Shown: positions 3,301-57,817 of the stretch, piece by piece
How the letters are laid out: every line of letters begins with the position of its first letter
Numbering within the stretch: position 1 is the first letter of the stretch
NCBI GenBank assembly: GCA_043228905.1
Contig: JBHGNT010000013.1
Location: 16,368,001 to 16,432,000, forward strand
DNA: 64,000 nt
Reading direction: 5' to 3'
From: Azolla caroliniana
Lineage: Eukaryota; Plantae; Polypodiophyta
Notes under the pieces: model-generated
Databases searched by the model: none
The model's input: only the letters and a program-made list of their open reading frames with translations
What the model was told of the DNA's origin: nothing
Made by a program: the position numbers and the translations under genes

Positions 3301-4219
3301 TTACATTGTCTTCATTGAGGCCTGAAATGACTACCCTCTCCATCTCTTTGAGAGTGTTGTCGAACGAGACCACCTCCATGGCACCACTTATGGTGTCATC
3401 TTCCCCCAATAAATTACATTGTTTGAGATACCTTTCATATCTCTTGGCCCTAGACTTATCTCTATCACTTAAACTAGTAATTTTACAAGCTCCATTTTCG
3501 GAGAACCAAAATTGTTTCCTATTACATTTAATAGTTTTACAAGGGTTTAGGGTCTTAGTTTGCCTCGGGTTATTTCGGCCCCACTCTTTAATAGCCCGAA
3601 TAAAAAATCCTCTCGGTTCTCCCCTTTGAGGGAGGCTCGATTGCGCTCATGGTTGGGCCTCACCATAAGGAATTGGACCGAATGCTTCCCATCTTGGCTC
3701 TTGACCCTCGCATATGTCGACCCATTGTCTAGCACCTTCGTCTCCATGCGAGCCGTTGTGATGTATGGTTCACCCAAGATGACTCTTGAACAAAGAAATG
3801 TTGTTCTATTTCTATGTCCCCCACCTTCACACGTACATTCGTGCAAGCTCCGTATAACTCCTCGGTTGCTCGGGTTGCCGCTCTAATCTTCCACCCGTGT
3901 TTTGTGTTGATCGGCCACTTTCCATGGACATAAGGTTGATCTCAAAGCCATGGTCGATTAATGCTACAGTTGGCTCTTTTACATCTCCGACCCGTACCGG
4001 TGTCTCCGTTGTTGCTCTCGCCCAATGCGGCCTCGTGTAGTGACTGTCCGCATAGTCTTCGTCTTCCTCGGGAACCTTAGTTGACAATGCATTTACAATC
4101 GCGGGCTTTGCCACTTCTTGCTCCATCGAGAGCCGCTTCCCTCTTCATTAGGTCGATGATGACCTCATGGAATTCTTTCTTGGCAATTCCGAGGACCTCT
4201 CGCAGAGTAAACTCTACGT
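400..4219 (-). pseudogene. Gypsy A pol (protease, RT, RNase H, integrase), broken by stops and frameshifts
   Basis: ALIDHGFEINLM (protease, 3827-4126); WFTVPKKN and LPQGGTNS...FLDDI (RT); VDTSP..IGW and ADMLS (RNase H); LHESPWAGHRG, IVADRGE, EANGKIE (integrase). Confidence 0.92.
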
Positions 4220-4500
4220 TGTCGCGTTGTTATTTCCACATGCATCCGGACAGCTACGACCCGACAGAAGAACTCCAGCCTCAACGCTTCGTCTACGCCA
4301 CGCTCCTCCATTTCCGCGTTGTAGGCTTCCAAGTAAGATGGGACTTTGTCCCCGTTGAAACGGCCGACTCTTTCGACCACTCGCTCAACCGCTTGTTGCG
4401 CTGCTTCTCGCCTCATCACCACTCGTGCCGACTCCAACACCACTTAGGCCACCATCTCCGCAAGTTCATCGTCTTCCGACTCCATCCTCCCTTGCCGCCT

Positions 4501-4518
4501 TTCACGTCACGTTCACCA
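4501..4518 (-). other. Primer-binding site (tRNA-Trp-like) of element B; second copy at 8705-8722
   Basis: TTCACGTCACGTTCACCA versus plant tRNA-Trp 3' end TTCACGTCGGGTTCACCA. Confidence 0.75.
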
Positions 4519-4522
4519 AAGA

Positions 4523-5289
4523 TGTCGCGTTGTTACGCGCGTGCGTGGAGAAAGGCGAGACCACGGGGGTCTTGGACTAGGGAGCGACGGAGCGTAGGAA
4601 GTCGTGCTTCACTGCTTCTGGGGCATCTCAGAAACACACCGGAAGCAACCGAAGGGAGAGAGAGTGAGAGAGAGAGAGCGTGCTTAACACCAACTCACGC
4701 ACACACACGCACACACAGCCCGACCCGACTCACGCCCTTATGTATAGGAAACGCAGGGAAGAAGGGGAGCACCCGACACCAACAAGACGCCAATATACAC
4801 AGACAGACGCAAACGTATATGTATATATATATAAGAAGAATACATTCCCGGCTTCGAGCCGGACTGAGGTAGGTTACAGTAGTCGTCTGCTGCCAAGCCG
4901 CCGTCGGGGAGCTCACGGGCTCGTCGCGCCGAGCGGGGTCTTGCACAGGAGATGAGCTGAAGCAAAACCTAAGCGAACACGAAGGGAAAGAAGAAGAAGC
5001 AGAAGAAACCTAACCCTAAACCTACCGGTATACCCTCTAATGCAAAAATGGGCAACCCCTACACAAAGGGTGTTCCCTTCCTTTTATAGATCAAGGAAAG
5101 GGATGCGTTACAATGTGGAACAAACCCCGACCTACATGGGATCGTCTGTCCCGACTTGACTACTCTTGGGCGCCATAAAGGCGCTCTCGATATTCACACT
5201 AAATGTACGTGGGTGCGTACACACGCTGCACCCCGCCGATGTAGCCAATGTTTCTCGGTTTTCGCCTATGGCCGAAATTCTTCACGACA
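4523..5289 (-). repeat. Shared internal LTR of element B (767 bp)
   Basis: TGTCGCG...CACGACA; PBS on one side, PPT (5290-5304) on the other; TATA-like CTATAAAAGG on minus near 5080. Confidence 0.88.
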
Positions 5290-8011
5290 TCCGCCCCCAC
5301 CTAACTGCACGTCCACCGGTACATGCCAATCTGGTTGAAGGGTGAGAGATTTCGGCTGGTGAGAAACCGGTCTCCCGTGATCCGCATCCCGGCTCGCTGC
5401 CGGTTAGATCTGTCGGCTTCGAGTCTTCCTTCGCGCTCGCCTCCCCGTAGGCTCGTTCGACCCGTCGATGGGTCCTCTGCCGCGATCTCCGTAGTACGCG
5501 TTCTTCCCGCCGTACGCCCGATGTCCTCCGCTTGAGGAATGCCCGTGGCAGCCCGCTTGGCCTCCGTTGTCGAATCATGATGTCCCGATGGTGTTTCGCG
5601 TTGCCTTCGTCCTTCCGCCGCCACCTTCCTTCTCCATGGTCTCACATCGCCGCGTCGGCTCGAACCGCCATGGTCTCCGGAACGGTGTGGAGGATCCTTT
5701 CCGACGTTCTCCGCGCTCGCCTTTCCGCTTTGGCACCTCCGTGTGCCATGTACCCTCGCCCGTTGTTTGGCACTGCCTATGTCGTACTCCGGTTTATTGC
5801 ACGCCTCGTCGGCCCCTTTCCGGCCAGATCGTGCATCGCCGCTCACCCGCATACCAGTGTCCTTTGCATCCGAGGAACACCCCGTAGTAGCCCGCTTGGC
5901 CCTTCCCGTCTCCGTGCTGCTGCAACAGGTCCTGAGTCTTCCGCTTGCCGTCGTCCCCTCGCCCCCACCAGCTTGTCACCCCGGCTTGCCGTGTCAGTCT
6001 TCGTTACTTCGACGGAGCTACCGAGATCTATGAAGCGAGTGTGGAGGATCCTCCTCCGGCCTCTCTTGCCATCCTGATCCCGACCCTATGCAGTCCACTA
6101 GGCACTTGTCACTTCGTTCTCGGCACCTCCCTTGTGCCGTCTTCCGCTTCCTTCGTTCGGCCCCGCCCGCGTCGAACACCGTCCCGTAGTCACGCTTCGA
6201 TCCGGCCCGCGATGGCCACTAGCGAGACTCTTGTTCTGCCCAAGGTGTGCCTTTCCGGCCTGACACACCTCTCCGTGTTTGCCCTTACCGGCTTCTTCCG
6301 AACCTCGTGTCGTCGGGTCCCGTTCCCTGCCGCCACCGTCCTTCTCCCTCGGTCTCACGTTGCCACGTTGGCCGAACTGCCGGAGTCTCCGGATCAGTGT
6401 GAGGGTCCCATAGGACCGGACTCTGTTTCTATGCTTGCCGAAACTCGGGTGTCTTTTGTTTGAGTCCCTCCCGGACTCTCCTCGTGTCTTCCGCGTAGCC
6501 GGGTCCCGTTTCCCGCCGCCACCTTCCTTCTCCCTCGGTCTCACGTTGCCACGATGGCAGCACAGCCGGAGTCTCCGGAACCGGTGTGGGGATCTCGTAA
6601 GACCAGACTTCCTTACGCCCATTGTCTTCGTCACCTCGCCGCCACCGTCAGTATCTTGGTCTTACGTCGACCGCGTTGCCGACTGCCGAAGTCTCTAGAA
6701 CCGGTGTGAAGGATCCTCCGTCGACCGCCCTTCCGTAGCCCTTGCCTTCGTCACCTCGCCGCCACCGTCAGTATCTTGGTCTTACGTCGACCGCGTTGCC
6801 GACTGCCGAAGTCTCGAGAACCAGTGTGAAGGATCCTCCGTAGGCCGCCGATTTGTCTTCCTGACCCTGTCCCGGGTCGTCCTTCTCCGTATACTGAGAG
6901 GGCGTTTTGTTCCGCACCCTCTCCCGTGGTACCGACGTACCGTGTCCTCGGCCTCTTCGTAGGCCAGCTCTCTTCCTCCCTCCTGGAATGGTCATCCGGG
7001 AGTCCGCTCCGCCCGGTTCTCGCTCGGGTTCGTTCGTCTTTCTCCAGATTGCCGAGTCCCGTTCTCCTGTCGCCACCGATCTCTCTTGTCGGACTCACGC
7101 CGGCACTCGGGCCTGCAGCCGGATCGGTGTAAGGAAACCCATAGGACCGGCTTTCATTCTCTTCCCAAATCTCGACCTTCGCCCGGTCGGTCTTTCTCCC
7201 CATGTAAAAGAGGGCGGCTCGTCCCGCACCCTCTCCCGTATTGGCACCTCTATGCCGAATCCGGCCTCGATCGAATGATCCACGACCGGATCACGCTCCA
7301 TCCGTATCGGAATGACAATCTCCTCGTGCCGCTTCCGTCCTTGGCCTCCTCGCAGGCCATTTCCCATCCGACTTCACTGGCATCGTGCCAGGACTCCTCG
7401 GTACCGCCATCCATCTCCTCGGTCTTACATGGCCATACGGGCCCGAATGCCAAGTTCTCCGGAATCGGGTCCGTGGGCTTTCGTCCGTTCCTTCCCCGTA
7501 TCGTCTCGCGGGTGATTCTTGGCCTATCGCTGCTGCCTTCCTCCGCTTGGGACTCGCGTGGGCACTCGGGCCCGACTGCCATCGCCTCGGGAGCAAGTGT
7601 GGGAAGACATAAGGAATCACCCGTCTGTTTTACGCCCTTGTCCGTAGCCACCGGCTCTCCGTGGTTGGCGGTCGTCTTCTTACCGATCGCGCAAGCCCCG
7701 TCTGGGCTTGCTTCTCCAATGACCGGGATCTCGGGCTGACACGCCCGAAACCGCTGGTCCCAACGTTCCGGTTCCGCGATCGATATCTCGGCCTCATCCT
7801 TGGCCGTTCTATCTCCGCAAGTCGAGAGGGCGTTTCGTTCTGCACCCTCTCCCGTGGTACCGACGTACCGATCTTCCGCCGTCGCGTGGGGCAAGTCCGT
7901 CTTCTTAGTCTCGGCTTGCGGCCTCCGTCTTTCCTCTTCCTCAAGCATCGCCTCGAGAGCTGCGTACGCCTCCGCAATCCTAGCCCCAACGCCGATCCTT
8001 GCCGACTCTCT

Positions 8012-8690
8012 TTACCGTTCGGCCTCTTCCCGTTGTGATGGCACGCCGTCGCATACCTTCCTCTTAGCCTTCTCGGCTCGCTCGTTGTCTAGCCGTTGGC
8101 ACACCCTTCCAACCTTCGACCAGTCCTCCGTAAGCCCATTCGCTCCGTCATTGTCTTCGAGCTCAATCCCGATGGCTTCCCGTTCCGCTCGGTCGATCAA
8201 CCTGACGAACAAAAGGACTTTGTCCGCCCCCACCAAACCTTGTTCCCGCTCCGGGAGCCGAGCAAGCCGTCTCTCAAACTCTCGGAACGCCTTGGTCGCG
8301 CCCCGATGGGTTTTTGCCGATGCTACCCACTAGTCAAAGTCGTGCCGTCCCCGGCTCTTCCGCCACCCTCCGTATGCCTTCAGGAGCGCCTCTTCGAAGG
8401 CCTCCCACGAACTATGAGCCTCTCAGAGCTCCTTTATTTCCACATGCATCCGGACAGCTACGACCCGACAGAAGAACTCCAGCCTCAACGCTTCGTCTAC
8501 GCCACGCTCCTCCATTTCCGCATTGTAGGCTTCCAAGTAAGATGGGACTTTGTCCCCGTTGAAACGGCCGACTCTTTCGACCACTCGCTCAACCGCTTGT
8601 TGCGCTGCTTCTCGCCTCATCACCACTCGTGCCGACTCCAACACCACTTAGGCCACCATCTCCGCAAGTTCATCGTCTTCCGACTCCATC
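8012..8690 (-). pseudogene. gag N-terminal remnant of element B
   Basis: VGRFNGDKVPSYLEAYNAEM...KVLLFVRLID...GLTEDWSKV aligns with Gypsy A gag MGRFNGRDITSYLDAYKAKM...KVLLFIKTVD...GLTTDWAMV. Confidence 0.85.
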
Positions 8691-8726
8691 CTCCCTTGCC
8701 GCCTTTCACGTCACGTTCACCAAAGA

Positions 8727-9070
8727 TGTCGCGTTGTTACGCGCGTGCATAGAGAAAGGCAGGACCACAGGGGTCTTGGACTAGGGAGCGACGGAGCGTA
8801 GGAAGTCGTGCTTCACTGCTTCTGGGGCATCTCAGAAACACACCGGAAGCAACCGAAGGGAGAGAGAGTGAGAGAGAGAGAGCGTGCTTAACACCAACTC
8901 ACGCACACACACGCACACACAGCCCGACCCGACTCACGCCCTTATGTATAGGAAACGCAGGGAAGAAGGGGAGCACCCGACACCAACAAGACGCCAATAT
9001 ACACAGACAGACGCAAATGTATATGTATATGTTTCTCGGTTTTCGCCTATGGCCGAAATTCTTCACGACA
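8727..9070 (-). repeat. 5' LTR of element B with an internal deletion of about 420 bp
   Basis: Matches 4523-4826 joined directly to 5249-5289. Confidence 0.88.
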
Positions 9071-10570
9071 ACGCGACAATCAAGGATCCTCTCCTCCACT
9101 ACCTTCTTCAAGTCCGTTGCTTGTTCGATCTTCGAGCAAAGCTTGAAGTTGGGGGGGTTCCCCTTCTCTTTCCATCTTTCGTCGCGTGCTTGAGACAGGT
9201 TCGGCTCTTCCCTTCTTCACGCACCTCGAGTGTCGTATTTCCTTGATGGACCGACTCCCTCGTCATTTTCTACCTTCTTCTCTTCTACCATTACTTCGTA
9301 GTTTTGGCAAGCGGCTTCCACTAAGCCTGTCTTTTCTTCCACCGGATCCTTCCACCCGGTTGCTTCTTGGACCCTTCTTTCCGCTTCATCCGGTTCTTCT
9401 CTTTTGAACTTCCCCTTAGAGAGGCTTCCAAGGATTGATGGACAAAAGTCAAACTCTCCTCTTGCCTCACCTCTTTCCCCACTTGGATCCCAGCCGATAC
9501 CGAGTAGTGGACGGCTTCAACATGTCATGCTTCGGCCTCCTCCATTAGCCTTCTCATGCCCCCTCGGCCTTGATTCAATCCCAAGGGGCGCCTCGTCTCC
9601 GTCTTATAGACCCTATTGTTCCAAAGATAGACAATATCCTTTCTTAGGGCCTCTTGAAAGTCTCCACACTCCCTTCGTAGGTGGTCGGGGTTGTCGCACC
9701 ACATACATCTTTGCGCGAACGGGGGATGCCGATCTTGAGGGCCGCCACTCTCTCTCCTAGCTTGTGCTATTTGGAGATCTCGCACCATCTTTGTCAGCTC
9801 GTCTATTGCCGACCCTCCCGACGGTGCTTCAACCACGTTTCTCTCGGGGACGAACCTTGCATTTGCTTGCTCTCTTTCTTGACGTATTCTACCACCCCTA
9901 GGTTCGTGTGTCTAACTAATGGAGCCTGTGGATGTTTGGCCGTTCAACAAAGACCCATCGTTCCATTCCCTTCTCTTATCAAAGCGGCTACAAACCCGTT
10001 TTACCATAGCCCAATCTGTCGTGAGCCCATCATCAGTTTCGAGGAGGGACCCTAGCTTCTCTCGGTCTCGTGCATCAACAGTCTTTATGAATAGTAGGAC
10101 CTTGCTTGTATCAAGCACCATCTTATTGAGAGCCGAGAGTTGTGCGAAGCACTTCTCAAATTCTTGTAAAAGTACCATAGTATTTCTCCCCTTGCCGGGA
10201 AGCTCAACCCACTCCATTAGATCCTTTTTCGAACTTCTGAGTGAGTCATCAAGGCCGTACTTCTCAAGGAGTCTTTCTTCGAACTCCACCCAATTGCAAC
10301 AGTCCGCTTGGATCTCGAGTACCTCTACGTGGATACTTGGCGTTACCACTCTAGCGAATCCGGTTAGCCTCCTATCTTCGGGGACGTTTCGCATAAGCAT
10401 TTTGGCCTTATAGGCATCCAAGTAGCTCGTGATATCTCTTCCATTGAACCGACCCATTGTGCTGACCACCGTCTCTATGGCTTGGTCTAGGCCGGTGATG
10501 CCTTCTCGGGCATTTCCCAAGCGGTCCACCGCCGCCGCCATCGCTTTAGCAAGTTCTCCTCCTCGCATCT
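9071..10570 (-). pseudogene. Gypsy A gag
   Basis: ORFs 9912-10619 and 9525-9836; zinc knuckle CMWCDNPDHLRREC. Confidence 0.88.
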
Positions 10571-10600
10571 TGGTTCTCCCTTGCCGCCCTTTCACGTCAG

Positions 10601-13114
10601 TTTCAGATCGATAACCCAACCTCGGAGCAACTCATCCGATATTTCGGTGAGTACTCTGTTGCCGGCAAAGGCTATCGGACGCAGGGCGGCGAAGATCCGC
10701 TATTCAGGGAGATAGCTCGAGTGCTCCATGAGTACGGTCACGTGTACCCCCGACCCCCTGTCATGCCAAAAAATCGGGCAGGGATGATCATAGCCACCTA
10801 TGAAGGGATCAAGGTGGACTGGCCGGTGTTGATTGCAGACGGGTTGTGCATGGCAATCGACATGGTACGAGGAAAGGACGGCAAGGAGGGCCGGAAGCTG
10901 TGGCACGCCGTAGCTCAATGGATAACATTGCTCGTGCCGCCGGTCGAGACCGTCCAGCCAAAGAAGCGGCCAAGAGTATCGGAAGGAAGCACCTCGAAGC
11001 CGGCGTCCAAACGACAGCAGCTGCTGGCGTCGAAGGCGACGAAAGGGAAGAAACGGGTCCCAGAACCGGAGGAGGTGTCACCGGTCCGACCCGTCAAGAT
11101 AACCTTACGGAGACCGGGACAGAAGGAACCGGAACCCTTGACGGCACAGACACATGCCGTGACACAGGAAGAGGAAACGGAGGAGCCAGAAGAGCACCTC
11201 CAACGACGGTCAAGAAGTAGGACCGCCGAAACAGGAGGGGAGCGGTCGTACCCGCGAGAGGCAGAAACGCCCCCAACTCAACCTGAGCAAACCACAAGGG
11301 AAGAACCGGAACCGGTGCGTAGGGAACCGGTCTTGTCGACTTCTATAGAAGAAGTCAGTCCAACGGCTCCGGAGACGGCGAGAACCGGAACTCAACAGCC
11401 GGCGAGCCCAGCCAGAGCACACGGCGGCCAAGGAGTAGAACCAGAACGACATATGCAGGCACTCAGGCCAGACAATTCCACAGGGAATGAGCCGACCCGA
11501 CCAGTACAGCAACAGGGCACCAGTAGCATGTGGCTACGGTGGGTAGGCGAGCAAATCGCCGGAGCGGTCGAGTATATAGAGGCGGAAGAGAGAGCGCACC
11601 AGGAACGGTTGCTCGTCACAACCGTAGATCTAGAGACGGCCCGGTCCAGAATCCGGAGCCTTGAACAAGACTTGGACAGGGTCACAAGGGAAATGGCTCA
11701 ATTCGCTTTGACAACACAAGTCCAAGCACCGGTGACTCCGGGCAATGTACAGAATAAAGTGTCAAATCAACCTGTACATAGCAATCAGACCCCGGCAACG
11801 GAAACCGTTCCGGAGAGAAATGCAGCACAAGCCCAAGAGCTTGCGGATTTAAAGGATGAGCTAGCTGCCCAAGAAGCGCTGAGGAGCCGCGAAAGAGAAT
11901 TGAAGACGGCAGCGGAGGCAGAACTCAAAAAGACTGCTGAGAATCTACGCCGGGCCGAGGAGAGCTTACGGAAAGGCCACCAAGCGTACGACCGGCTCAA
12001 GGAGGAGAAGGAGAAAATGCTGCAAGAGAAGGAGAGGCTCCGGAGGAACGCCGAAACAGAAGTAGAGCGCCTGAAAGAGGAACTCCGGCAGGTAAAGGAC
12101 CGGGAGGACCGGAACCATCGCCAGATCAACGGCAAGCTCAAACAAAAAACGGAGGAATTTGAGAACTTGCACCGGGAGTATAAACGGTTGCAAACGGAGC
12201 ACAAGGAACGGACGGATGAGCTCCGGCAAGCAGTTGATCGGACCGCAACCGCATTCGCCAAGGAACAAGCGGAAAACAGAAGACGGTTGGAAGAGGCGGA
12301 GAAGGTTCGGACAGAGCTCCTCAGGCAACAGCAGGCGGAAAAAGAAAGAGCGGCGGAGGTACTGCAGAGGCTGCAAACGACATATCAAGGGCAGCTGACG
12401 CGCTACAGAGAGCAGGCGGAGGATACGGCAAATCTCATCAAGCAGTTGAAGGAGGAGCGACAAGTGGTGGAAAGCAGAGCACAAATGGGAGCAAGTCGCA
12501 TCCAGGATATAATGCGGGCCTGGTTGAACCAGACCAAGAGCTTGATTGACAACGGGTCCGTCAAATGGTGGACCAAGTGGGCCACGAACGCGGTGGAACT
12601 CCAATTGCTCCGGGCTGATGTAGAGAACCGGCGGAAGGAGGGAGATGATTGCTATATGCTGACTTCCGAAGACTTCACCGGCATAAGAGATGAGCTTGCC
12701 GAAGACTTTCAAGCCTTGGCAGAGGACCAACTAGAGCAAGTCCGGCAACTTGTAGCTCAGCTGGACGACGACAGGCTGGAGGCGCAGATCTAGTTTGAAA
12801 GCTACGAGAGGTCCCGGATCCGGGGAGAGAAGGAACGAGAACCAGTTACGGTCAACCTCAGTGATGAGGAACCGTTACTGGAAGGAGACCGGACCGGAAG
12901 TAGTCAAACGGAGATGTCGGAGCCAGAGAGACAAACGGAGCAGCCGGAGTCAGCGAAACAAACGGAGCAGCAGCAGCAAGCAGAGCAGCCGGAGCAGCCT
13001 CAGTCCCAACCGCAACCACAGCAGCAGCAGCAAGCACAGCCGCAACAACCACAACCGGAAGAACAAGTGGAAATTCTTGAACAAAGTAATTTGGACAATT
13101 TGGGTGAACAATGA
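10601..13114 (+). CDS. Retroelement accessory ORF: N-terminal plant-transposon-protein-like domain, long coiled coil and Q/E-rich tail; 5'-truncated, one internal TAG at 12791
   Basis: 690-aa ORF 10721-12793; frame is open back to 10601 and continues in frame to 13114; GIKVDWPVLIADGL motif; E/K/R/Q-rich helical region. Confidence 0.7.
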
Positions 13115-13147
13115 AGGGGCCGAGAAGGGTTCGACGTACAAGGTACT

Positions 13148-13164
13148 GTCCCACGGGCGTGCCA
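13148..13164. other. tRNA-Arg 3'-end motif adjacent to the LTR of element D
   Basis: GTCCCACGGGCGTGCCA versus plant tRNA-Arg(UCU) 3' end GTCCCAC(C/T)GGGCGTGCCA, 2 nt from the LTR. Confidence 0.75.
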
Positions 13165-13166
13165 TG

Positions 13167-13586: not shown

Positions 13587-13642
13587 CCGCCATCGCTTTA
13601 GCAAGTTCTCCTCCTCGCATCTTGGTTCTCCCTTGCCGCCCT

Positions 13643-13660
13643 TTCACGTCGGGTTCACCA
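13643..13660 (-). other. Primer-binding site of Gypsy A, complementary to tRNA-Trp
   Basis: 18-nt TTCACGTCGGGTTCACCA equals the recalled plant cytosolic tRNA-Trp 3' end; 5 nt from the LTR. Confidence 0.85.
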
Positions 13661-13665
13661 ATTTA

Positions 13666-15191
13666 TGTCGCGAAGTTTCGCGCACGTGTGTTACTTGGGC
13701 GGGACCACGAGGGTCTTGGACTAGGGAGTACTCAAGGGATAGAGAAGACCCGAGGTTTACTTTACAACAATACTACTTCCTGACCCCTTCCCGAGCAAGG
13801 TCTCATTGCCCTTTGTTTTGTGAGGACGGTGGCTCTTGTTGATCACGACTCGTCGACCTTTCGAGCTCACCGCACGAGCCAAGTGATCAAACGGGTACAA
13901 GCAAGATAAGCATGCACGATGAACGCACAAGGGGAAGATAACACAAACATGAATGCCCGTACGTCTTTATGAGGAGGAGAGGTGCATGGGCACGCCTGAA
14001 CGCTCCCTCGTCACAAGACATCGAACGTACGAGGAAGACAAAAAACACATGCACAAATGCTCGTACCCCTTTATGAGGAGAGGTGCATGGGCACGCCCGA
14101 AACGCTCCCTTGTCACAAGATGGCCGAACGTACAAGGAAGACACAAACACACACACAAAATGCTCGTACGCCTTCATGAGGAGGAGAGGTGCATGGGCAA
14201 GCCCGAACGGTCCCTCGTCACGAGACGGCCAAACGTACAAGGAAGACACAAACACATGCACAAAATGCTCGCACGCCCTTATGAGGAGGAGAGGTGCATG
14301 GGCAAGCCCGAAACGGTCCCTCGTCACAAGACAGCTGAACCTACAAGGAAGACACAAACACACGCACAAATGCTCGTAAGTCTTTATGAGGAAGAGAGGT
14401 GCATGGGCACGCCCGAAATGCTCCCTCGTCACAAGACGACCGAATGTACAAGGAATACACAAACACACTCACAAATGCTCGTACGTCTTTATGAGGAGGA
14501 GGGGTGCATGGGCACGCCCGAATGGTCCCTCGTCACAAGACGGCCGAATGTACAAGGAAGACACAAACACACGCACAAAATGCTCGTACGCCTTTATGAG
14601 GAGGAGAAGTGCATGGGCAAGCCCGAAACAGTCCCTCGTCACAAGACAGTCGAACATACAAGGAAGACACAAACACACACACAAATGCTCCTACGTCTTT
14701 ATGAGGAGGAGAGGTGCATGGGCACGCCCGAAGGAAAAATGGCGATAGTCTCCTCCTCCCAAAACGTCCTCCTGAATGAGCCCCCCTCGACCTCCTTTTA
14801 TAGGAAAAAAAGAAGGGGGGTCCGCCAATTTTGTCTTCAATGAAAAAGGAATAAAATTCCTTAAATCACGCTACACTGTAAGACTAGATTTGAACCGTGC
14901 ACCTCTAGCTAGTAGTCAATGTGACTATTCACTAGCCCATTAACTCTCTCGTATATAATATATAATTCTATCTCTATAAATTCTTAGGGCCATGTCTCTT
15001 CTCTACATTTGATCTCTCTTCTCTCTTACTTTTTGCACAGGCTTACATGCATCCTTTCTAGCCTTTCTTTTCCCTTTTATTTTGCATATGCACAATTAAT
15101 CGCTTTTGTGTGCACACACATTGCACATGCACATTTTTGACCCCCCCCTTTCGCCGGGTTTTCCCACTCTCGAGCATGCCACATCACGACA
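13666..15191 (-). repeat. 5' LTR of Gypsy A (1526 bp)
   Basis: TGTCGCG...CACGACA; TATA CTATAAAAGGAGG on minus near 14792-14804. Confidence 0.9.
13940..14731. repeat. Tandem array of about 105-bp units (about 7.5 copies) inside the LTR
   Basis: ATGAGGAGGAGAGGTGCATGGGCA recurs at roughly 105-bp intervals. Confidence 0.92.
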
Positions 15192-16317
15192 CCGTATTTG
15201 TCGTGTTCGCTTTTTCTACCCATGCTTGGGCCGTCTGACGTATCTCATCTTGCACGGCCCAATCAGCATTTTTTGTTTACTGTCGTGTCGTGACTTGTTG
15301 GACTGCCGCCATAATCGTATTGACGGCAGGCCCTTTGCCTTTGCGTAGTAGACATTGTGTGGCATAATGTCCTAGCTGTTGGCAAACAAAACAATGGACG
15401 CTAGATTCGCCTTTCTCGGCAACTGGTGGTGCATGCCGATCCCCGGTGTGACTTGCTCCTCCCAGTCCTGATTCATTCTTCTGAGTGTACGCGGTAGTTG
15501 TTGTTGGTCCCGGCACGGTTCCTGGTGTCGGTCATCGCCCGAACTTTCATCGTACCGCCGTTGGTGCCGATACTGACAATGTTTCCCGCGAGGCCCATTG
15601 AAGCCGCCCCGTTTGTTCGTCGGACGGCAATTCTCGTAGCGTCAGCCTCTATTATATTTGTGGTTGGCATAGTAGTCTTCATCCTCCGGCTCTTCTTCTT
15701 TGGAATCATTGTTATTTCGGCGATTCTGGTAGTGCCGGTCATCGCGTGGGTTCCGATCCGTATACCAGGGTCGTTCTTCCTGGTGCTTTTGCTCATTACG
15801 GCGAGGGGGGCACTGTGTTTCCACGCTTCGTACTGTGGGCGTGGATCTGTTCAACATATTGTACTCACACTGCTCGATTGTGTGAGCTTTCGAGTGACAG
15901 ATTGGGCAGTGGATTCGCATGTAGCATAAAACTGCGGAATGCCTAGAATTTAAGCAAATCGTGCACTGGATTGCCTGGCGAAAATGTCGTTCCTCATCCT
16001 AAAGTAACGTTTGCCGTAATGAGGACATGGAAAATGTTTCCTCTTCTTCGTCCAGCTCGAGTTAGCGCTCGTTCTATGACCATATCGGCCGTAACTTCTC
16101 CTTTCACGCTATTGTTGTTGAGTATCATCCGTATCGGTCGTCGTAAAGCTGCCATAAATGTCTCCCGAGCCTCGTCCTCCGTCGGGCCTCATTCTAATTT
16201 CCGTTGTAGGTTTTGGAAGCGTAAATTGAAATCCGCTACAGTCTCAGCCGGCAATTGTTTAATTGTATAAAATTGCCCGAGGATTTTGCATTGCGGCACC
16301 CTCGATGAAAGAAACGT

Positions 16318-17194
16318 TTTCGTGCCTCTTGGCGCCGGATCGTTGCGTGAGTTGGGTGGGAACTGCTGGGGTTTTGGACTAGGAGGAAAGAAAATTCTAA
16401 GGCAATTAAGAATATGAATTATATTGTAAGAAAGAAAGATATGAAAAACTCGTGAATCCCATGAGTATAGTGTATTAGTGAGTACTCAAATTAAGAGAGA
16501 AAAAATTTAGTTAGCAAACTCGTGGATCCCACGATTATATTATATTAATCCCTTTGTAAAATAATCAACAACCTCTATACATCTTTCTCTCTTCCTTATA
16601 TAGTGTTGGAAGAGTCTAAGTTTATCCCATGCAAGCATCATGCTTTTCCTATCTTTAGTTTTCATGCACACTACATGTGCATGATTAGCTTTCTATCTCA
16701 TCTTTTCTTTTAACTCGAGTGTCTATGTATGAGTAACTTTTTGGACCATGCATATCTAAAATATTTACATGGGATAAAGTTTAGTATAACTTTAAAATTC
16801 ATAATATGCTAGTATAGTGATAAAGCTTAACATTATTAACATGGAAGTGCAAGGTTCGAATCTTGCCCTATGCATGTAATATATATATTTTTATACTTTC
16901 TTCTATTTACAAATATGTCTCTTCATCCGGTGAGAGACTCACACTGGCCTTCTTCATCCGGCTCTTTCCGGTTCTGCTTCATCCAGTGCTTGCTAGTTTT
17001 CTTTGTCCGTTTCTCACCAACTCTCACCAGCCTTCTTCATCCGGCTCTTCCTTGCCGGTTTACCGATTCCTCTTTGCCGATTTACCGATTCCTCTTTGCC
17101 GGTTCCTCTTCGTCCGGTTCTCACCGGGTATTTCATTCTCTATCCGGATGGACAAAATGCAATTTCCACGTAGTGTGTAAATTACACTATGACA
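16318..17194 (-). mobile_element. Solo LTR (TGTCG-type Gypsy group)
   Basis: Homologous end to end with 21605-22444; flanks ACGT/ACAC; GGGGTTTTGGACTAGG motif shared with LTRs of A and B. Confidence 0.85.
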
Positions 17195-17978
17195 ACACAG
17201 AAAGACCGACTGCAGCTGGTCGAAGGTCGTGATTGCTGGCAGATCCATCTACGAATGCCAAAACGCCGCTCTCCCATCCAGGGTTAATCTGAACTCTGTC
17301 ATTTTGGACTGGTGCGCTACTTCTTCCGAAAGTTTCAGTGCTATGTGATTTGAATTCCAGACATTCAGGAACAGTCGAATGTGGGTTGCAGTGTCGGTTT
17401 CGTCGTTGAAGCAGGGATAAGAGAAGGCCATGCTAGACGTTATGGCGGACGGGGAAAGACCACAGTGTGTGTGTGGTGAGCACGCTTCCTGCTTGTCGCC
17501 GAGGTATTTGGGGAGCGAGAAATCATCTTTGTGGTTCCGACAGTTATCACTGAGGTCATTGAGGCGAGGTTTCTACCGTGCGCGTTCCTCTGCCTGGCGT
17601 GTGATGGACCGTGTGATTGGTTGGTCTTGTCGTGTTGGTTCTCTGGGACGTCTACGACGAAACATCCATTCGTTGTTGTTCGTCTGTGAGGAGACACAGA
17701 TCACCAAGTGTGCCAAAAGTGTTACTGATTAGGAACACGATCTACAGTCAGTCCTTCGACCTAGACCTCAAAGTTACTGCGTTGCAACGAATGGTACCAT
17801 CGTACCGTAATATTTAATGGGATACCTCCCGTATCCTAACAGCGTATAAGGGAGACGAAGACAACCGAACTCCTTAGACCGGGCACTAGTAACCGCACTG
17901 TCACTCACGCCTACGCTCTTACGATTACGCTACGCTACCAAGAATCACAGACACACAGTAGATTAACCACAGATACGT

Positions 17979-19219
17979 TGTCGTGAAGATTTTCGACAAT
18001 GGTGTGAAAATCTAATAAGACGTACGAAATCAAGTGTCAATCATATAAAACAATAATAGTGAATATACTAATTCTAAGTAAATTTAATATCTTAGTACAA
18101 AAGACGAAGATCTTGAATAGATGCACTTTACTACATAAGAAACAGACATATAAGTGTCAACTTATGTGGGTAAGAAGTTGTGAAAGAAAAAGAGAAAATT
18201 TGTGAGATATCCCACATAGACAAGACGAATAAGGCTCTCACCATATATAAGGTAGAGCAAAAGTTATTATCTTTGTGTGGAGCATAGAGAGTTCAAGGTA
18301 ACTTGAACTAAGAGTGGAGGTGGCCTAGCCACTTGTAAAGGTTTTGGCCAACCAAAACGGAACTGGACGGTAACCGGTGATCCGGCGGTATCGGTATCCA
18401 GCATCCGACGACCGACAGCCGCATCGACGGCATCCGGCGGCGGCCACCGGTAACCGACGGCATCCGACGAGGCGACAACCACCGGTAACTAGCGGCATCT
18501 GGCGCTGGCGAGGCGACGACATCCGACGACTAGATAAATAAATATATAAATATATATACATCTACAAGGAGGGCAAGTAACGATTCAAACCTTGCACCTC
18601 CAAGTTAGGAATCAATTGGCTTACCACTAAGCCAAGATATTGAGTTGAAATTATATTTCTATCATTGTACTTTTCCATATAAATTGTCATACATGAGAGC
18701 TAAAATGAGTGACATGGTTATCATGCACCACATGTAATACATGAGCACCAAATGGCAAACATGCATTTTATGCATGTCTTGAACCCTCAAATGCTTGAGG
18801 GTTCAAGACATGCATAAAATGAGTAACATGGTTATCATGCACCACATGTAATACATGAGCGCCAAATGGCAAACATGCATTTTATGCATGAGGGCATCTA
18901 TAAAAGAGGGAATGAAAAAGATCAATGGGGGGGATTCTTTGATAAAAAGAAAGCTTTGTACTTTAAATCAAAATTAATATTAAGAAGAAAATTCGTTATC
19001 CCTTTTGATGATATACCTTGTTCTTGAAATCTAAAGTCAAGAGTTCTTAATCTCTCTCTCAATCTAAAATCAAGCATTCTATCTTATCTCAATCTCTCTC
19101 TCTTTCAATCTATCTTAATTCCTTTCCCGCTAAAGCTTGTGCAAACTTGGAGTCCTTCCGGTCCAAAACCCCGGCGGTTCCGCCTCGCGATCCGCGCCTA
19201 GTGACAGATCTTCACGACA
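17979..19219 (+). mobile_element. Solo LTR (TGTCG-type Gypsy group), inserted in the LTR of element C
   Basis: 12-bp inverted termini TGTCGTGAAGAT/ATCTTCACGACA; flanks ACGT/ACGC; TATA CTATAAAAGAGGG near 18898. Confidence 0.88.
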
Positions 19220-19433
19220 ACGCACAGGGATCAGAGAAGATCAAACTCTATTAAGATACGCTTTCTGCATTCAAAATTACACGCTACCACTATCAGAGGA
19301 TTTCTGCCCTTTATATACACAGGGTCTTTTAGCCGTTCACGCTTCCCGCGTGAACCGTTTACATGCGTTACATTTTTACTATATTCTATATTTTTGCGCT
19401 CCTGTCCATCGGTTACTATTCCGGCGGACAACA

Positions 19434-20464: not shown

Positions 20465-20533
<69 letters not shown>

Positions 20534-20708: not shown

Positions 20709-23700
20709 AATGGATAGAGGCATGGCTAGCTCGCTTTCAACCGAGAAGCTTGACAAAAACAATTACGCATCTTGGTCCTACAAGATGCACTAGTACCTAC
20801 TCGGGCATGGATACTGGAGCTATGTCGACGAAGCAAATGACACAACACCCGATTCGACACACAAAGACTTCCTGGCTTGGGAACAGTCCGCGAGCAAAGT
20901 TCTCTAGTGCTTCGCGTCTTGTGTGGGCGAACAGCTTCTAAGCTATATTCGGGATGCGAAAACGCCAAAGGATTCTTGGGGAAATCTGAAAAAGATTTTG
21001 ACCGCAAGCACCACAGCCAGAAAACTCCAACTCCAACAAGCGACAACGCGATTTGTTGATGGTTGATTACACCTCGAAGATCAAAGATATATGCGAATCC
21101 TTAGCCTCCATCGATGTGAACGTCGAGGAAGGCGAGATGGTGCAGATCTGTCTCGGGGAACTGGTGTCAAAGTTCGGAGCGTTCCGAACTGTTGTGTGCA
21201 CAAGGGAGAATACGTCGTCGTTTTTCGACCTACAGTCGATGCTCCTTAAAGAGCAGAACCACGCGAGTGCGTCGATGAGTACACACGCTGATAGCAAGAT
21301 GTTTTACACGGAGGGAGATAGGCCCCGTGGTCGTGGCAGACGAGGCGAGTCGGTGCGCAATGGAGGTGGCCGACGAGACCAAGGAAGAAGGCACCGGAGT
21401 GATGCCGACAGCAATTTCGAACCCTCCGGAAACAGGGGGTCTAGGTGACGAGAACCAACAAGGGAAATCCGTCACGGAATGCTAGTATTGTGGCAAGAAA
21501 GGCCACAAGGAGAGCGAGTGCTAGAAGAAGCGTGCTGATTCGGAGAAAACCGGATCCGGATCCGTACAAACCGACAAAGGAAATCGGCAACGATCGCACT
21601 ACACTATCGCGCCTTTCAGCTCCGGATCGTTGCGTGAGTCATGTGGGAACCACTGAGGTTTTGGACTAGGAGAAAGAAGAATACAATATAAGGCTAGTTA
21701 TGAATAGGTAGAAAGAGAAGTAAGAAATAAAACTTGTGAATCCCGTGTGTTTAGTGTATTTAATCAATATTTAGATTGTAAGAAAGAGAATTTTGATGAT
21801 AAACTCATGAATCCCACGAATATATTAGATTGATCAATCCTTGTAAAATAATCAACAACATCATACATCTTTCTCTCCTCCTTATATAAGGATGGAAGAG
21901 GCTAAGCATAGCTTCATGCTTTTTCTAAAGTGTTCATGCACACTAAATGTGCATGAGTTGCTTTTTACACTATGCTTTTATTTCCTAAATATAATGCTCA
22001 TGCTCGCTAGATGTGCACGAGTAATTTTTTATAGGTGTACATTTTTCTTATAAATAAAGTATTTATGCATTCTAAAAATGCATAACTTACCTTTTAATAA
22101 AAGTAGGTGTAAATAAAGGTCTTATACGTATTAAATCTATATTTAGAACACTAAGGATAAGTTAGTACAATGGTAAGGTTGGGATTTGCCTACGTGGAGG
22201 TATAGGGTTTGAATCCTACCCTATGCATGTGACAATCTTTTCTTCTATTTATAAATTTGTCTCTTCATCCGGTGAGAGACTCTCACCGGCCTTCTTTATC
22301 TGGCTCTTGCCGGTTCTTACCGGGTCCTCCTTACCAGTTTCTCCTTCATTCGGTTCTCACCAGTTCTCCTTACCGGTTCCTCCTTGTCCCATCCGGAGAA
22401 ACCAAAATGCAATGTTCACGTAGTGTGCGAATTACACTACGACAACGCCGAAGGATCCGAAAAAATTGGAAAGGGGGCAGCCTTCGTGACAAGACACAAG
22501 GCGAACTCGATGAAGAAGACCACCCCGAAATCAGACGAGGTGTGGTACGTTGACTCCGGCGAGTCAAACCACATGACGAGCCATAAGGAGTGGTTCTCAT
22601 ACCTTGAGAAACCGATGGAACCAGGAGTAGTCGCAACAAGAGACGACACTCCGCATCCGATCAAGAATGTCGGTGAAGTTCCCCTGAGCCATGTCGGGCA
22701 AAAACGGAAACTCATGAACGTGTTACACGTCCCGACAATCACGAAGAATCTAGTGTCGATCGGGCAGATCGTCGACCAGGGGATACAACTCCGGTTCACG
22801 CATCTCGGGTGCTTCATCGAGGAGGAAGGCCAAGTTATTATGCAAGGGCGTAGAGACGGAAGGATGTTTATCCTCGACACCAATGACGTTGGCACCGCAA
22901 TGTTCGCAAAAGGACAAAAAGTCGAGTCAGATATCGACTTGTGGCACAAGCGGATAGGCCACATCAACTATCAAAGGCTTCAGGACTTGCAATCAAAACA
23001 TGTTGTGTTCGGATTGCCCAAATTCAGTGGCCGGAAGGCCCAAATTTGTGAAGCTTGCCAGCTAGGGAAGCAACACCGACTTCCTTTCCCAAACGAGCAT
23101 CATCGGAGCCGGAACAAGCTCGACTTGATACATTCGGATGTATGGGGGCCGGCACAGAACGTTAGTCTTGGTGGGAGTCGATATTTTGTCTCCTTCATCG
23201 ACGACTACACGCGGCACACGTGGATCTATCTCATTGAAAAGAAGAGTGAAGTCTTCGAATGATTTTGGGACCTCAAAAGCTTCATAGAAAGGGAAACAGG
23301 GAGAAAGATCAAGTGCATGCGGTCGGATGGCGGAAAAGAGTACTTTTCTGACCAATTCAACAATTATCTGCAACAAATGGGAATTCGGCGTGAATTCAGT
23401 TGCAGGTATACGCCGGAGCAAAACGGCGTAGCCAAAAGGAAAAATCGGTCAGTTGTGGAAGCAGTGCGGGCAATGCTGGAAGAAAAGAGCTTGCCCAAGT
23501 TCTATTGGGCCTAAGCGGTGTAAACCGTGGTCTACATCCAGAATCGGATTGGAGACAAAGTGTCGGTGCATGAGCTGTATTTCGGAAGGAAGCCGAATCT
23601 ACGATACTTGAGAGTTTTTGGTAGCATTGCATATGTGCATGTGTCGAAGGAGAAATGGAGGAAGTTGGACGCAAAAGCCGAGAAGTGTATCTTGGTCGGC

Positions 23701-48806: not shown

Positions 48807-48845
48807 TGTAAACGTAAGTGTTTGCGGAAGCGTAAAACAGAGAAC

Positions 48846-48876
<31 letters not shown>

Positions 48877-54351: not shown

Positions 54352-54395
<44 letters not shown>

Positions 54396-54733
54396 CAGAG
54401 AGAGCAGAACACAATTTCAAAATTATATCGAGACTCTGTACACACACTGTGCTAAGTAGCACTATTTATACAAGTCCTCTTGGGACTGTCAGAAGTACCA
54501 TGTACTTCAATGCTCACACGAGCATCTGACACTTACTATGAGACTATAGCTACCTAGTAGTCTATCCTTTACTAGGCTTCGGATTGGACTTTCGGTTACG
54601 GATTGCACCCGGCCTCCACTGCTTGCTGGTTCGGTTGCTCACCGTAATACCGATCCGTTTCGCCCGATCCGTCTCGCTTACCGGCTCCGGCTTATTCAGC
54701 CGATCCGGCTCTAGTTGAGCTTGCCGCTCAACA
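48807..54733 (-). mobile_element. Full-length Ty1/Copia element 2 (same family as Copia 1, younger)
   Basis: LTRs 48807-49191 and 54313-54733 (about 9 substitutions by eye plus indels); TSD ATACA; PBS 54301-54312; PPT 49192-49205. Confidence 0.97.
49186..54219 (-). pseudogene. Copia 2 gag-pol, interrupted by several stops
   Basis: CWYCGKKGHRESEC; WYCDSGASNHM; integrase core; QMDVKNAFL; LLYVDDLVI; GYTDADW; TKHIEVHYHFVRE. Confidence 0.95.
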
Positions 54734-55012: not shown

Positions 55013-56816
55013 AGAGATAGATAGATAGATAGATAGATAGATTATATTATCGTCTTCGGAGATCAAATATGACCTATGAGACCAAAAATATTACATTTCA
55101 CGTGATACGTGTGAAAGTGAGTAGTGACTCTCGATGTTCAAGAACTTTACCAATGAATGTTGCAATCGAGAGTGCACATTGTGGTTGTGAGAGGAATTCA
55201 TGCAAAGATTGGGCTCGATCGAAGAGATGTGGAAAGCATGGTCGAATATGATCAAAGGCAGAGCATTGTATCAAAGTGTGATACTCAGACTCGCGAACTT
55301 GTTTAGGGCAAAGTGTGCATAGCCGACCACTCTCATCACTTGTACCCCAACGCCCTGTTTCACATCGCAATGCATGTGAGCTAAGTCGCATGGAAGCAAT
55401 GGTTCGAATGGCAGATAACGGTATGGGCTCTAACATGTATGGATGTGTACGATTTCCCCGTTCCGCAAACAATATGGTTTTGTAGTTAGGTGCAACATGT
55501 GTAGTATAATGTGTGAAGCGTGAGCCTCCACATTTGTCCCATGTCATGATACATTGGCGTTGCAAAAATGCCTCATTTACAGAGGAATCTAATGATGCAT
55601 CATGAAGCAAGTGTCTCGCATCCCATCTACCAAACCATTTTTCTATATCTTGCATCCAACCGGAACACAAAATTTTGCTTTTATGCGTCTTTTGGATCTT
55701 TTTGCTTGCTTCCCACGCAATTCTAGGAAGTCGATGTGAGGGACTTTTTTGAACCTTAAGCATGTATTCAACAACCCTTTCCATGGCCATGATCTCAATG
55801 GGAAGCGATCCCGTCTCAAGGAGGAGCAGGGTGTAGGGCGTTTGTTTCTTAACTTGTAGAAACTTGGTAAGAAAATGCTTTTGGACATTTTCAAACTCTT
55901 TCCACATAGACTTAGGGATGCTACCGCCCCATACTTCCACCCCATAGAGAAGAACTGGTGTCACCAAAGTGTCAAAAAGATATTTCTTGAGGACCCAACA
56001 CTTAATATCTCCAAGATTGCATGTGTTCTCAAATGCATAGTATGCTCGTTTGCCCGCCTCTAAGCGGCGTGTAGCACATTCATTCCATCTATGATTTGAA
56101 GGAACTTCAAGGCCAAGATATTTGAAGCTTTCCACACATTCAAGTGGCTCATTGTTGTACATAATGCATGGTTTATCTCTTTTTTGGCTCTTCACAAGCA
56201 TAATCTTTGTTTTAGAGCTATTGACACTTAATTTAGTATGCATGCAAAATTTTTCCAATGCCTTCATAAGCTTTTGTGCATCTCCTAAAGTATTTGCAAA
56301 AAGCACTACGTCATCTGCATATAGCAAAAGCATAATCACAACATTCCCAATGGCAACTTCTTCAACACATTCTTCCTTTGCAAACTTGGTAACCATTTCT
56401 TCCAATTCATCAATGCATAGACCAAATAGTGTTGGTGAGAGTGGGCATCCTTGCTTAACACCAATAGTGCTTTTGAAAAAATCTGAAAGTTTATCTTTCA
56501 TGCGCACACAACATATAACCTTCTCATAAATTCGGGAAATTGCAAGCATATATTCACTTGGCACCTCAAGTTCTTCCATTCGCCTCCAAAGATGCTCACG
56601 AGGTACCATATCAAAAGCTTTCTTGAAGTCTACAAAGCAACAATATAAACCTTTACCTCTAAGGCGACTTTCCTCCATTAATACTCGAAGGGTGATAAGG
56701 TGATCAATGGTGCTATGGTGTTTCCGAAAGCCAGCTTGTCCATAAGCTCTCTTACCACTTTTTTCAGCCCATACACTTATCTTTGATTCCATTATACATC
56801 CAAATAGTTTTGCCAT

Positions 56817-56820
<4 letters not shown>
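55013..56820 (-). mobile_element. 5'-truncated LINE (RT and C-terminal Zn motif) inserted in the (GA)n tract of the Copia 3 LTR; (CTAT)n tail
   Basis: Open frame 55098 to about 56815: QAGFR, FVDFKKAFD, GVKQGCPLSPTLF, LLYADD, KYLG, CTLC..ESEYH..C. Confidence 0.93.
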
Positions 56821-56866
<46 letters not shown>

Positions 56867-57431
56867 GAGTGAGTGAGTGAGAGTGAGAGAGAGAGATAAG
56901 GAGTAAGACACAGAGAATACGCAAGGTAAAGTATATTAACAAAGGAGAAAGACTTAACCTTATACAAGGTGGGAGGAGGGTGCTTTATATAGTCATCCTC
57001 TCTCTTCATTAACTACAAGACTCATGCCAGAGCATGGGGAATGTGAAAGCTCATAAATTATGTGTCATAGAATATGATTCTATGACTCATACTAAATGCT
57101 AGAATCCAAAGTGGTGACATAGTAGTGACACTTGACCGTTGGAGTGTTTATTCACTCTCAAGGTGAGTTCACACACTAGACCAAGTTGAGCTTGATTCTC
57201 AACATGCCTCCTCAAGCTCAAGTCGGGTCGGTTTCAGACAGTATCCAAAATATGCTTCGACTCGCGTTCCGAAGTCCGCGTCGACTCGCATTTATGCAGA
57301 GTTACGGAATCCGTGCTCCAGCTTGCATTGTGCGTAGTTGCGAAGTCTATGCTTCGGCTTGCGTCTTTCTTTGTGGCTTTGTGCGGTAGATCGGCTTTTC
57401 GCGACTTCGTGCGCAATTGCGAAATCCACGC

Positions 57432-57817
57432 TGTCGTGAATATTTTCGTCCATAGGCGGAAACCAGGGTGGAAAGGGCAAGTCGGTGGTGTGCAACATGT
57501 GCACACGTATACTAGGAAATGGTGTATAGAAATAAGAGGGGAAATTTTATCCCACATTGTAAGGTCCCTCCCTCCTTGGGCTATAAAAGGAAGGGAGGGG
57601 TCACTTATGAAGGGTTGCCTATTTTTCGTATGAAAGGTATACCACTTAGTCTAGAGTTCTTACCGTTTTAGGGTTAGGGATTCGTTTACGGTTTCCTTAT
57701 TCATCCTCGGTTAGGGTTTTCTCATATTAGTTTTGGTGCGGCCCATGCGGCCACCATTGTTGTAATCATTCGTTCGTTTTAATATAACTTGTTGAGTATC
57801 TTGCCTTGGCTGATCTC
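57432..57817 (+). mobile_element. Truncated TGTCG-type Gypsy LTR inside Copia 3
   Basis: TGTCGTGAATATTTTCGTCCATAGGCGGAAACC resembles the reverse complement of the element B LTR end (5257-5289); TATA CTATAAAAGG at 57581; left flank ACGC. Confidence 0.8.

What the first reader, a model, noticed from the sequence alone, without database searches (positions are those of the whole stretch)
4216..57817. Gypsy group with apparent sequence-specific integration at CG-centred 4-bp targets (ACGC)
Seen: every insertion with TGTCG-type LTR ends has a 4-bp flank of the same kind. These are 4220-9070 (ACGT/ACGC), 16318-17194 (ACGT/ACAC), 17979-19219 (ACGT/ACGC), 21605-22444 (ACAC/ACGC), 57432 (left ACGC) and the Gypsy A right flank (CCGT). 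Two empty sites can be rebuilt as ACGC, from the restored host frame and from the paralogous Copia 2. The LTRs belong to different subfamilies, occur in both orientations, and all sit in other retroelements. Known: most plant LTR elements make 5-bp TSDs with little sequence preference, whereas some Drosophila gypsy-group elements make 4-bp TSDs at specific motifs. Inference: a CpG-reading integrase that steers insertions into CG-rich TE DNA and away from AT-rich genes.
Basis: partly seen in the sequence, partly recalled or inferred. Interest (0 to 1): 0.85.

Follow-up and report, generated by a model that had tools for sequence, protein, structure and literature searches.

The report
CG-targeting Phygy-type retrotransposons
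In what is likely a fern genome, a large group of jumping genes almost always sits in a four-letter site with CG in the middle, a habit already published for the moss "Phygy" group to which they likely belong; their integrase enzyme likely picks the site, which would be enough to explain why they pile up inside other jumping genes.

Summary
In 1.66 Mb of sampled genome, 73 of 95 outer LTR ends have CG at the centre of the flanking 4-mer and 21 more have its decay products CA/TG. Of 55 paired ends, 46 match as 4-bp duplications with at most one mismatch; none fits 5 bp. tRNA-Met-primed controls give 5-bp duplications, 0 of 17 with CG. The elements share a tRNA-Trp primer site, lack a chromodomain and are about 7-9 kb: the profile of the Phygy clade, for which Neumann et al. 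2019 list "4 bp (100%) (NCGN)", tRNA-Trp 81%. Tree membership could not be tested. Corrections: the target is VCGB, not ACGC (50 of 51; classes match background, p=0.59). T at the joining base is avoided, as in retroviruses. Nesting in repeats (81 of 95) equals that of random VCGB sites (508 of 600), so no extra targeting is needed. Methylation sensing is untested. The scan noted CpG-centred duplications before in a fungus and Phygy-like elements elsewhere in this genome.

The parts
1..226 (-). Gypsy A 3' LTR, inner part (it continues to 1545 bases upstream of the window, where the outer flank reads TCGT)
   Evidence: 91.3% to 13666-15191; purine tract adjoins at 227 onward
572..3882 (-). Gypsy A pol, broken into several frames: RT 2741-3646, RT/RNase H 1486-2685, integrase core 572-1147
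   Evidence: Pfam RVT_1, RT_RNaseH, RT_RNaseH_2 on 1483-2682; 72-91% identical integrase pieces in other genomic copies
4216..4219 (+). Left target copy ACGT (last base decayed from C next to the LTR's TG)
4220..9070 (-). Non-autonomous element inserted in Gypsy A: 5' LTR 8727-9070 (internally deleted), gag-like internal part without pol, 3' LTR 4523-5289, then a short second primer-site/gag start and a 13-base LTR end at 4220-4232 (tandem-type structure)
   Evidence: LTRs 98% over 304 bases; only gag matches; tRNA-Trp-type primer sites after both LTR ends
9071..9074 (+). Right target copy ACGC
   Evidence: empty paralogues L254 and L257 carry one ACGC
9528..10631 (-). Gypsy A gag (two frames)
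   Evidence: 31-64% to gag of other copies
13644..13660 (-). Gypsy A primer-binding site, complementary to the 3' end of tRNA-Trp(CCA); 5-base spacer to the LTR
13666..15191 (-). Gypsy A 5' LTR with internal tandem repeats
15192..15195 (+). Gypsy A right target copy CCGT (left copy TCGT upstream of the window)
16314..17198 (-). Solo LTR 16318-17194 (subfamily C/D) with flanks ACGT / ACAC
   Evidence: 75% to 21605-22444
17975..19223 (+). Solo LTR 17979-19219 (subfamily B) with flanks ACGT / ACGC
   Evidence: empty paralogue with ACGC
21601..22448 (-). Solo LTR 21605-22444 (subfamily C/D) inside a Copia element, flanks ACAC / ACGC
   Evidence: five empty Copia paralogues with ACGC among ten listed
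57428..57817 (+). Left flank ACGC and 5' part of an LTR (57432 onward), truncated; sits in a Copia element

Best explanation
These are copies, solo LTRs and deleted derivatives of one non-chromovirus Ty3/gypsy clade, likely Phygy, that sit in 4-bp target duplications of the form VCGB, and whose integrase likely selects that site itself. Shown: 4-bp duplication, CG centre, avoidance of T at the joining base, tRNA-Trp primer site, D-35-E integrase with a GPY/F module and no chromodomain, and later C>T/G>A decay of the duplicated copies. Inferred: as in the foamy-virus intasome, a 4-bp stagger bends the target at its central pyrimidine-purine step and disfavours T at the joining base; the restriction of that step to CG likely needs added base contacts (candidates: the conserved loop around Q349-H350-K355 of the C-terminal domain and an acidic residue at the position of PFV Ala188). 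Because CG is depleted in gene-like AT-rich DNA and kept in repeats, the motif alone would place most insertions inside other elements.
For: 73 of 95 outer ends CG-centred, 21 CA/TG, 1 other; 69 of 83 further ends from search loci. 55 pairs: 25 exact, 21 one mismatch, 7 two, 2 more; all have 2 or more mismatches as 5-mers. 51 of 55 explained by C>T/G>A; 50 of 51 VCGB vs 50% of local CG sites (p=3e-14). T first in 4 of 142 CG-centred ends vs 33% background. Control: 17 of 25 tRNA-Met-primed LTR pairs have exact 5-bp duplications, none with CG. Primer site complementary to ARAGORN-called tRNA-Trp. No chromodomain family hit on two pol ORFs; tails after the GPY/F motif have median 70 residues in 106 of 120 homologues. 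Phygy row: 4 bp 100% NCGN, Trp 81%, no extra domain. Integrase core matches PFV integrase best (Z 18.7, rmsd 2.7 over 164). Repeat share and CG density of flanks equal random VCGB sites.
Against: No Phygy-labelled sequence could be obtained, so clade membership by tree is untested (the REXdb fasta is too large to read). Six un-nested coding copies are 6.9-7.8 kb, mostly below the Phygy range of 7.7-10.0 kb. Phygy was defined from a moss; this host is likely a fern (support 90/92, unstarred). Sites are old insertions filtered by selection. No integrase-DNA contact was shown. An acidic residue at the Ala188 position abolishes strand transfer in RSV integrase (PMC4005685), so the PFV analogy is imperfect. 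Two of 55 pairs do not match at all and two differ by a transversion. Five of six window sites reading ACGC is more than background predicts (p=0.001, post hoc) and is unexplained.
Confidence: 0.8

Rival explanations
1. The integrase (or a partner) reads methylated CG, so it actively targets silenced repeat DNA without a chromodomain.
For: Target copies decay almost only by C>T/G>A (51 of 55 pairs), so they were methylated at some time; 81 of 95 flanks are repeats; near-invariant unusual residues in the integrase.
Against: Decay shows methylation after insertion, not before. Repeat share and CG density equal those of random VCGB sites. CCG-first targets are neither clearly favoured nor avoided (class test p=0.59). 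Pfam finds no reader domain in two pol ORFs.
Confidence: 0.15
2. Only DNA flexibility is read (any central YR step); CG dominates for compositional or historical reasons.
For: 4-bp-stagger retroviral integrases prefer central YR steps (PMC4422553 abstract); CA, TG and TA centres do occur (34 of 178 ends).
Against: In matched pairs the CA/TG centres resolve to CG: all 51 transition-explained pairs give a CG centre, and none of the 25 exact pairs has a CA, TG or TA centre, although CG is only 3.8% of dinucleotides in the sample.
Confidence: 0.03
3. The CG words are an artefact of mis-set LTR ends or of survival bias, not target duplications.
For: LTR termini themselves are CG-rich; seeds were built from the same sample.
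Against: Inner LTR ends abut the primer site or purine tract at the same boundary; outer bases 1 and 4 vary between copies yet match within a pair; empty paralogues hold one copy of the word; other LTR families in the same sample show 5-bp CG-free duplications.
Confidence: 0.02

Closest known systems
Phygy clade, non-chromovirus Ty3/gypsy (Neumann et al. 2019, PMC6317226; passages and supplementary table 5 read)
   Same: 4-bp NCGN duplication, tRNA-Trp primer site, no chromodomain or other extra domain, polyprotein filling the internal region; Phygy nested in other elements was also seen in the moss (PMC6911290 passages).
   Different: Described from Physcomitrella patens (186 elements); also named in a liverwort assembly (PMC12885004 passages). 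Here the host is likely a fern, copies are 6.9-7.8 kb, and the motif resolves to VCGB. Sequence identity to REXdb Phygy not tested.
Ginger1 DNA transposons (PMC2836005 passages)
   Same: Gypsy-type integrase with H2C2, DDE and GPY/F; 4-bp duplications CCGG (75%) or CCGT/ACGG (24%), a subset of VCGB.
   Different: Cut-and-paste DNA elements of animals with terminal inverted repeats; narrower motif; no RT. Relatedness of the integrases not tested.
Drosophila ZAM (PMC2527525 abstract)
   Same: LTR element with CG-based sequence-specific insertion, attributed to the integrase by in vitro binding and nicking.
   Different: Six-base CGCGCg consensus, insect retrovirus-like element; here no preference outside the 4-mer survives correction.
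Prototype foamy virus integrase (PDB 3OYM, 4E7K; PMC4422553 abstract and section 14, PMC4005685 passages)
   Same: Closest solved integrase; central flexible YR step; T disfavoured at the joining base.
   Different: Only weak base preference; small neutral residue at position 188, where this clade has Glu or Asp in 86 of 88 sequences.
P. patens RLG1 and Tcn1-type chromoviruses (PMC7466625 passages; table)
   Same: Gypsy elements that accumulate in repeat-rich islands of a seed-free plant.
   Different: They carry a chromodomain; Tcn1 has 5-bp duplications and mostly self-primes.

Membership tests
Phygy | Clusters with P. patens Phygy in RT/RH/INT trees | not testable with these tools
   REXdb fasta and element table too large to read; no moss-labelled hit among the listed homologues; named hits are from Riccia, Adiantum and Calypogeia
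Phygy | Ty3/gypsy domain order RT-RH-INT | tested here: met
   RVT_1 283-457, RNase H 523-652, Integrase_H2C2 779-833, rve 853-944 in one ORF
Phygy | 4-bp target duplication | tested here: met
   46 of 55 pairs within one mismatch at 4 bp; none fits 5 bp
Phygy | NCGN target motif | tested here: met
   142 of 178 ends CG, 34 more CA/TG/TA; 51 of 51 resolved pairs CG-centred
Phygy | tRNA-Trp primer-binding site | tested here: met
   17-base complement of ARAGORN-called tRNA-Trp(CCA) follows the 5' LTR; 32 sites with an LTR end in 1.66 Mb. Elements were partly found through this site, so its share among all copies was not measured
Phygy | No chromodomain, no archaeal RNase H, no extra ORF | tested here: met
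   No such Pfam hit at E<=0.01 in two pol ORFs; ORF ends about 60 residues after GPY; the 747-aa antisense ORF in the window belongs to a separate nested element
Phygy | Length 7.7-10.0 kb | tested here: inconclusive
   Six un-nested coding copies 6.9-7.8 kb; Gypsy A about 8.8 kb after subtracting two nested elements
Chromovirus (Tcn1, Galadriel) | Chromodomain after the integrase; Tcn1 5-bp duplication and self-priming | tested here: not met
Selgy / TatI (other 4-bp plant clades) | Selgy tRNA-Ala primer and about 5 kb; TatI archaeal RNase H | tested here: not met
   Primer is tRNA-Trp and copies are about 7 kb; no second RNase H family hit
Ginger1 | DNA transposon with terminal inverted repeats, no RT | tested here: not met
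   Direct LTRs, primer site, purine tract and RT present

The most novel reading that the evidence does not exclude
A chromodomain-free gypsy lineage of mosses, liverworts and ferns has kept an integrase that reads the CG step directly, through a rewired target-binding surface (acidic residue at the PFV Ala188 position, conserved C-terminal loop), and prefers it when methylated, giving a sequence-encoded route into silenced DNA shared with fungal relatives and Ginger1.
Probability: 0.15. Interest if true: 0.65.

Novelty: new member of a known kind. Interest (0 to 1): 0.3.

Why it matters
Phygy is the one plant LTR clade reported to have a sequence-specific target, yet the published support I could see is one sentence and one table row from a moss. 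This genome adds a large, likely fern, set with matched controls, narrows the motif to VCGB, and shows that motif density alone accounts for nesting in repeats. It makes a CG-selective integrase a testable object: if methylation mattered, it would be a new way for a retrotransposon to find silenced DNA. As it stands the finding is a confirmation and refinement.

Tried and rejected
ACGC as the specific target: rejected, class use matches background (p=0.59; 0.65 without the window's pairs). 5-bp or 6-bp duplication: rejected. A wider palindrome: no position from 5 to 20 outside the LTR passes correction (smallest p=0.02 of 16 tests, 95 ends). Extra regional targeting beyond the motif: none detected (repeats judged only against the 1.66 Mb sample, and today's genome is an imperfect stand-in for the genome at insertion time). 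The 747-aa ORF at 10550-12790 as an extra ORF of Gypsy A: rejected, it belongs to another LTR family. A non-repetitive flank that looked like a broken PPR gene gave no Pfam hit, so it is not counted as a gene insertion. Phygy reference sequences were sought without success. The structure model (pLDDT 85) confirmed the fold but gave no residue-level map of the C-terminal loop onto PFV Arg329. Metagenome relatives (80 loci) share the primer site and purine tract but their outer flanks were not scored. Ten paper searches listed no paper that by title or abstract start reports the VCGB refinement or a fern set; 18 papers hold the word Phygy, of which I read passages of three.
Full report
Setting. 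The window is G000:C13:16368001-16432000 of a 523-Mb genome. A thaumatin-family host gene at 46249-47103 has ferns as its best full-length named hits (57-59%) and falls in a tree with fern sequences at 90/92 support, unstarred. The host is therefore likely a fern; this is weak, single-gene evidence. Repeat-rich parts of the window keep CG at observed/expected near 1, while 28-34 kb has about 0.25.

Observation. 4220-9070 is a minus-strand, pol-less element: 5' LTR 8727-9070 with an internal deletion, 3' LTR 4523-5289, then a short second primer-site/gag start and a 13-base LTR end, a tandem-type structure of the sort reported as common in plants (PMC11899658, abstract). 16318-17194, 17979-19219 and 21605-22444 are solo LTRs; 57432 is a truncated LTR. 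Gypsy A runs from 1545 bases upstream of the window to 15191, with LTRs 91% identical and flanks TCGT / CCGT; it carries the broken pol, which ties the motif to a coding element. Blasting each left flank separately found uninterrupted paralogues with a single ACGC for 4220, 17979, 21605 and 57432; for 16318 two distant paralogues read CCGC.

Genome-wide test. I took 1.664 Mb in 15 blocks: the window with 100 kb each side, and 14 blocks of 100 kb at arbitrary round positions. LTR ends were seeded from inner features only (primer site, purine tract; 31 of 32 and 25 of 26 seeds kept) and extended to the terminus, giving 163 ends, 99 first called outer; 4 of these were decayed inner ends and were reclassified, leaving 95. 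Their central dinucleotide is CG in 73, CA in 12, TG in 9 and other in 1; CG makes up 5.3% of steps in their flanks. Nine of the 95 are the window's own. Search loci added 83 distinct outer ends, 69 CG. Pairing gave 35 pairs in blocks (one mis-pair replaced by two hand-corrected pairs, so 36) and 19 in loci (one duplicate row dropped). As 4-mers, 25 of 55 are exact, 21 differ at one base, 7 at two and 2 at more; as 5-mers all machine-made pairs differ at two or more. In the same blocks, 17 of 25 tRNA-Met-primed LTR pairs have exact 5-bp duplications and none of the 17 contains CG.

The motif. 51 of 55 pairs differ only by C>T or G>A. Resolved, they give ACGC/GCGT 12, ACGG/CCGT 12, ACGT 9, CCGC/GCGG 8, CCGG 7, GCGC 2 and ACGA/TCGT 1: 50 of 51 are VCGB, against 50% of local CG sites (p=3e-14). 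Within VCGB the classes follow background (p=0.59), so ACGC is not special. T stands first in 4 of 142 CG-centred ends against 33% expected. No base preference outside the 4-mer survives correction. That five of six window sites read ACGC is more than background predicts (p=0.001, post hoc); I have no explanation beyond chance among many windows.

Steering. Flanks match a repeat elsewhere in the sample in 81 of 95 cases, against 385 of 600 uniform positions (p=3e-5) and 508 of 600 random VCGB sites (p=1.0); CG density behaves the same way (p=1.5e-7 and p=0.21). The bias towards repeats is real, but the motif's distribution accounts for it. Fourteen flanks had no repeat match and some are AT-rich, so 'all sit in other retroelements' is not general.

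The elements. All subfamilies share TGTCGT... and ...CGACA ends, a similar purine tract and a 17-base primer site complementary to tRNA-Trp(CCA) genes called by ARAGORN, 3-9 bases after the LTR. One copy with uninterrupted frames and an exact CCGG duplication has a gag-like ORF with DUF4100 and a pol ORF with RT, RNase H, H2C2 and integrase core, and no chromodomain hit. The integrase search had 16,112 first-look candidates in the genome, 150 scored (not a copy number). Named homologues come from Riccia, Adiantum and Calypogeia.

Mechanism. Shown: the target word, its length, its decay, the primer and the domain content. From the literature: retroviral integrases favour a central flexible YR step, more so with short duplications, and nearly all disfavour T at the joining base (PMC4422553, abstract and section 14); PFV Ala188 and Arg329 contact target bases (PMC4005685, passages). 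PFV integrase is the closest solved structure by sequence and fold. Inferred: V and B come from the general T rule, the YR centre from bending, and the restriction to CG from added contacts. Candidates are the residue aligned to Ala188, which is Glu or Asp in 86 of 88 sequences though compact and neutral in retroviruses, and the conserved Q349-H350-K355 loop after the first C-terminal strand. Neither contact is shown, and in PFV residue 188 contacts bases outside the duplication. Methylation sensing cannot be judged from decay, which post-dates insertion.

What is known. Neumann et al. 2019 write that, with the exception of Phygy elements with a preference for NCGN, plant target duplications are highly variable, and tabulate Phygy as 186 elements, 4 bp 100% (NCGN), tRNA-Trp 81%, 7.7-10.0 kb, no extra domain. 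Every sequence feature I could test agrees except length, which is at or below the low end. The defining test, a tree with REXdb Phygy, was not possible because the fasta and the element table could not be read; that table may also already show the T avoidance. So these elements work like Phygy and are likely Phygy. CG-based specificity is also published for Ginger1 (PMC2836005, passages) and ZAM (PMC2527525, abstract). Phygy nested in other elements was seen in the moss (PMC6911290, passages) and Phygy is named in a liverwort (PMC12885004, passages). PMC7466625 (passages and supplement legends) does not use the word Phygy. Two earlier notes of this scan bear on the finding; they are leads, not support.

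Verdict. A real, strong and well-controlled pattern, but a new member of a known kind. The additions are a likely fern host, the VCGB refinement, the demonstration that motif density explains nesting, and candidate residues. Interest 0.3.

Noticed in passing
window 10606-13586: A separate LTR-family element nested near the start of Gypsy A, carrying a 747-aa ORF with no Pfam hit and bounded by a 57-base duplication (10549-10605 and about 13587-13657). Related copies occur in several blocks; one solo LTR has a 5-bp GCGCT duplication.
   Followed up: partly
window 13661-13665, 4519-4522, 8723-8726 and sample blocks: The spacer between the LTR's CA and the primer site is 3-9 bases (4 in 19 of 32), longer than the two or so bases I recall for most LTR elements; it may imply longer 3' processing of that end.
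   Followed up: no
L090:4339-9998: Gag-like and pol ORFs overlap by a few bases in different frames, and the stretch just before pol matches the end of ORF1, suggesting a frameshift; no protease family hit was found in either ORF.
   Followed up: no
window 48805-54733: Copia element with an exact 5-bp TGTAT duplication and 89% identical LTRs; its paralogue at 20218-26705 shows no matching duplication.
   Followed up: partly
window 55101-56984: Minus-strand ORF with an RVT_1 domain, likely a non-LTR element, lying beside a 165-base repeat shared by 56875-57037 and 61352-61516 (97.6%).
   Followed up: no
G000:C8:17.80-17.82 Mb, C16:4.99-5.11 Mb, C5:10.105-10.112 Mb: Clusters of tRNA-Trp-like sequences at about 0.9-1.3 kb spacing; 62 pattern matches in the genome, those in 8 loci called tRNA-Trp by ARAGORN.
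   Followed up: partly
block C10 (G000:C10:10053183-10053187): Two elements of this group sit end to end, separated only by the 4-base target word.
   Followed up: no
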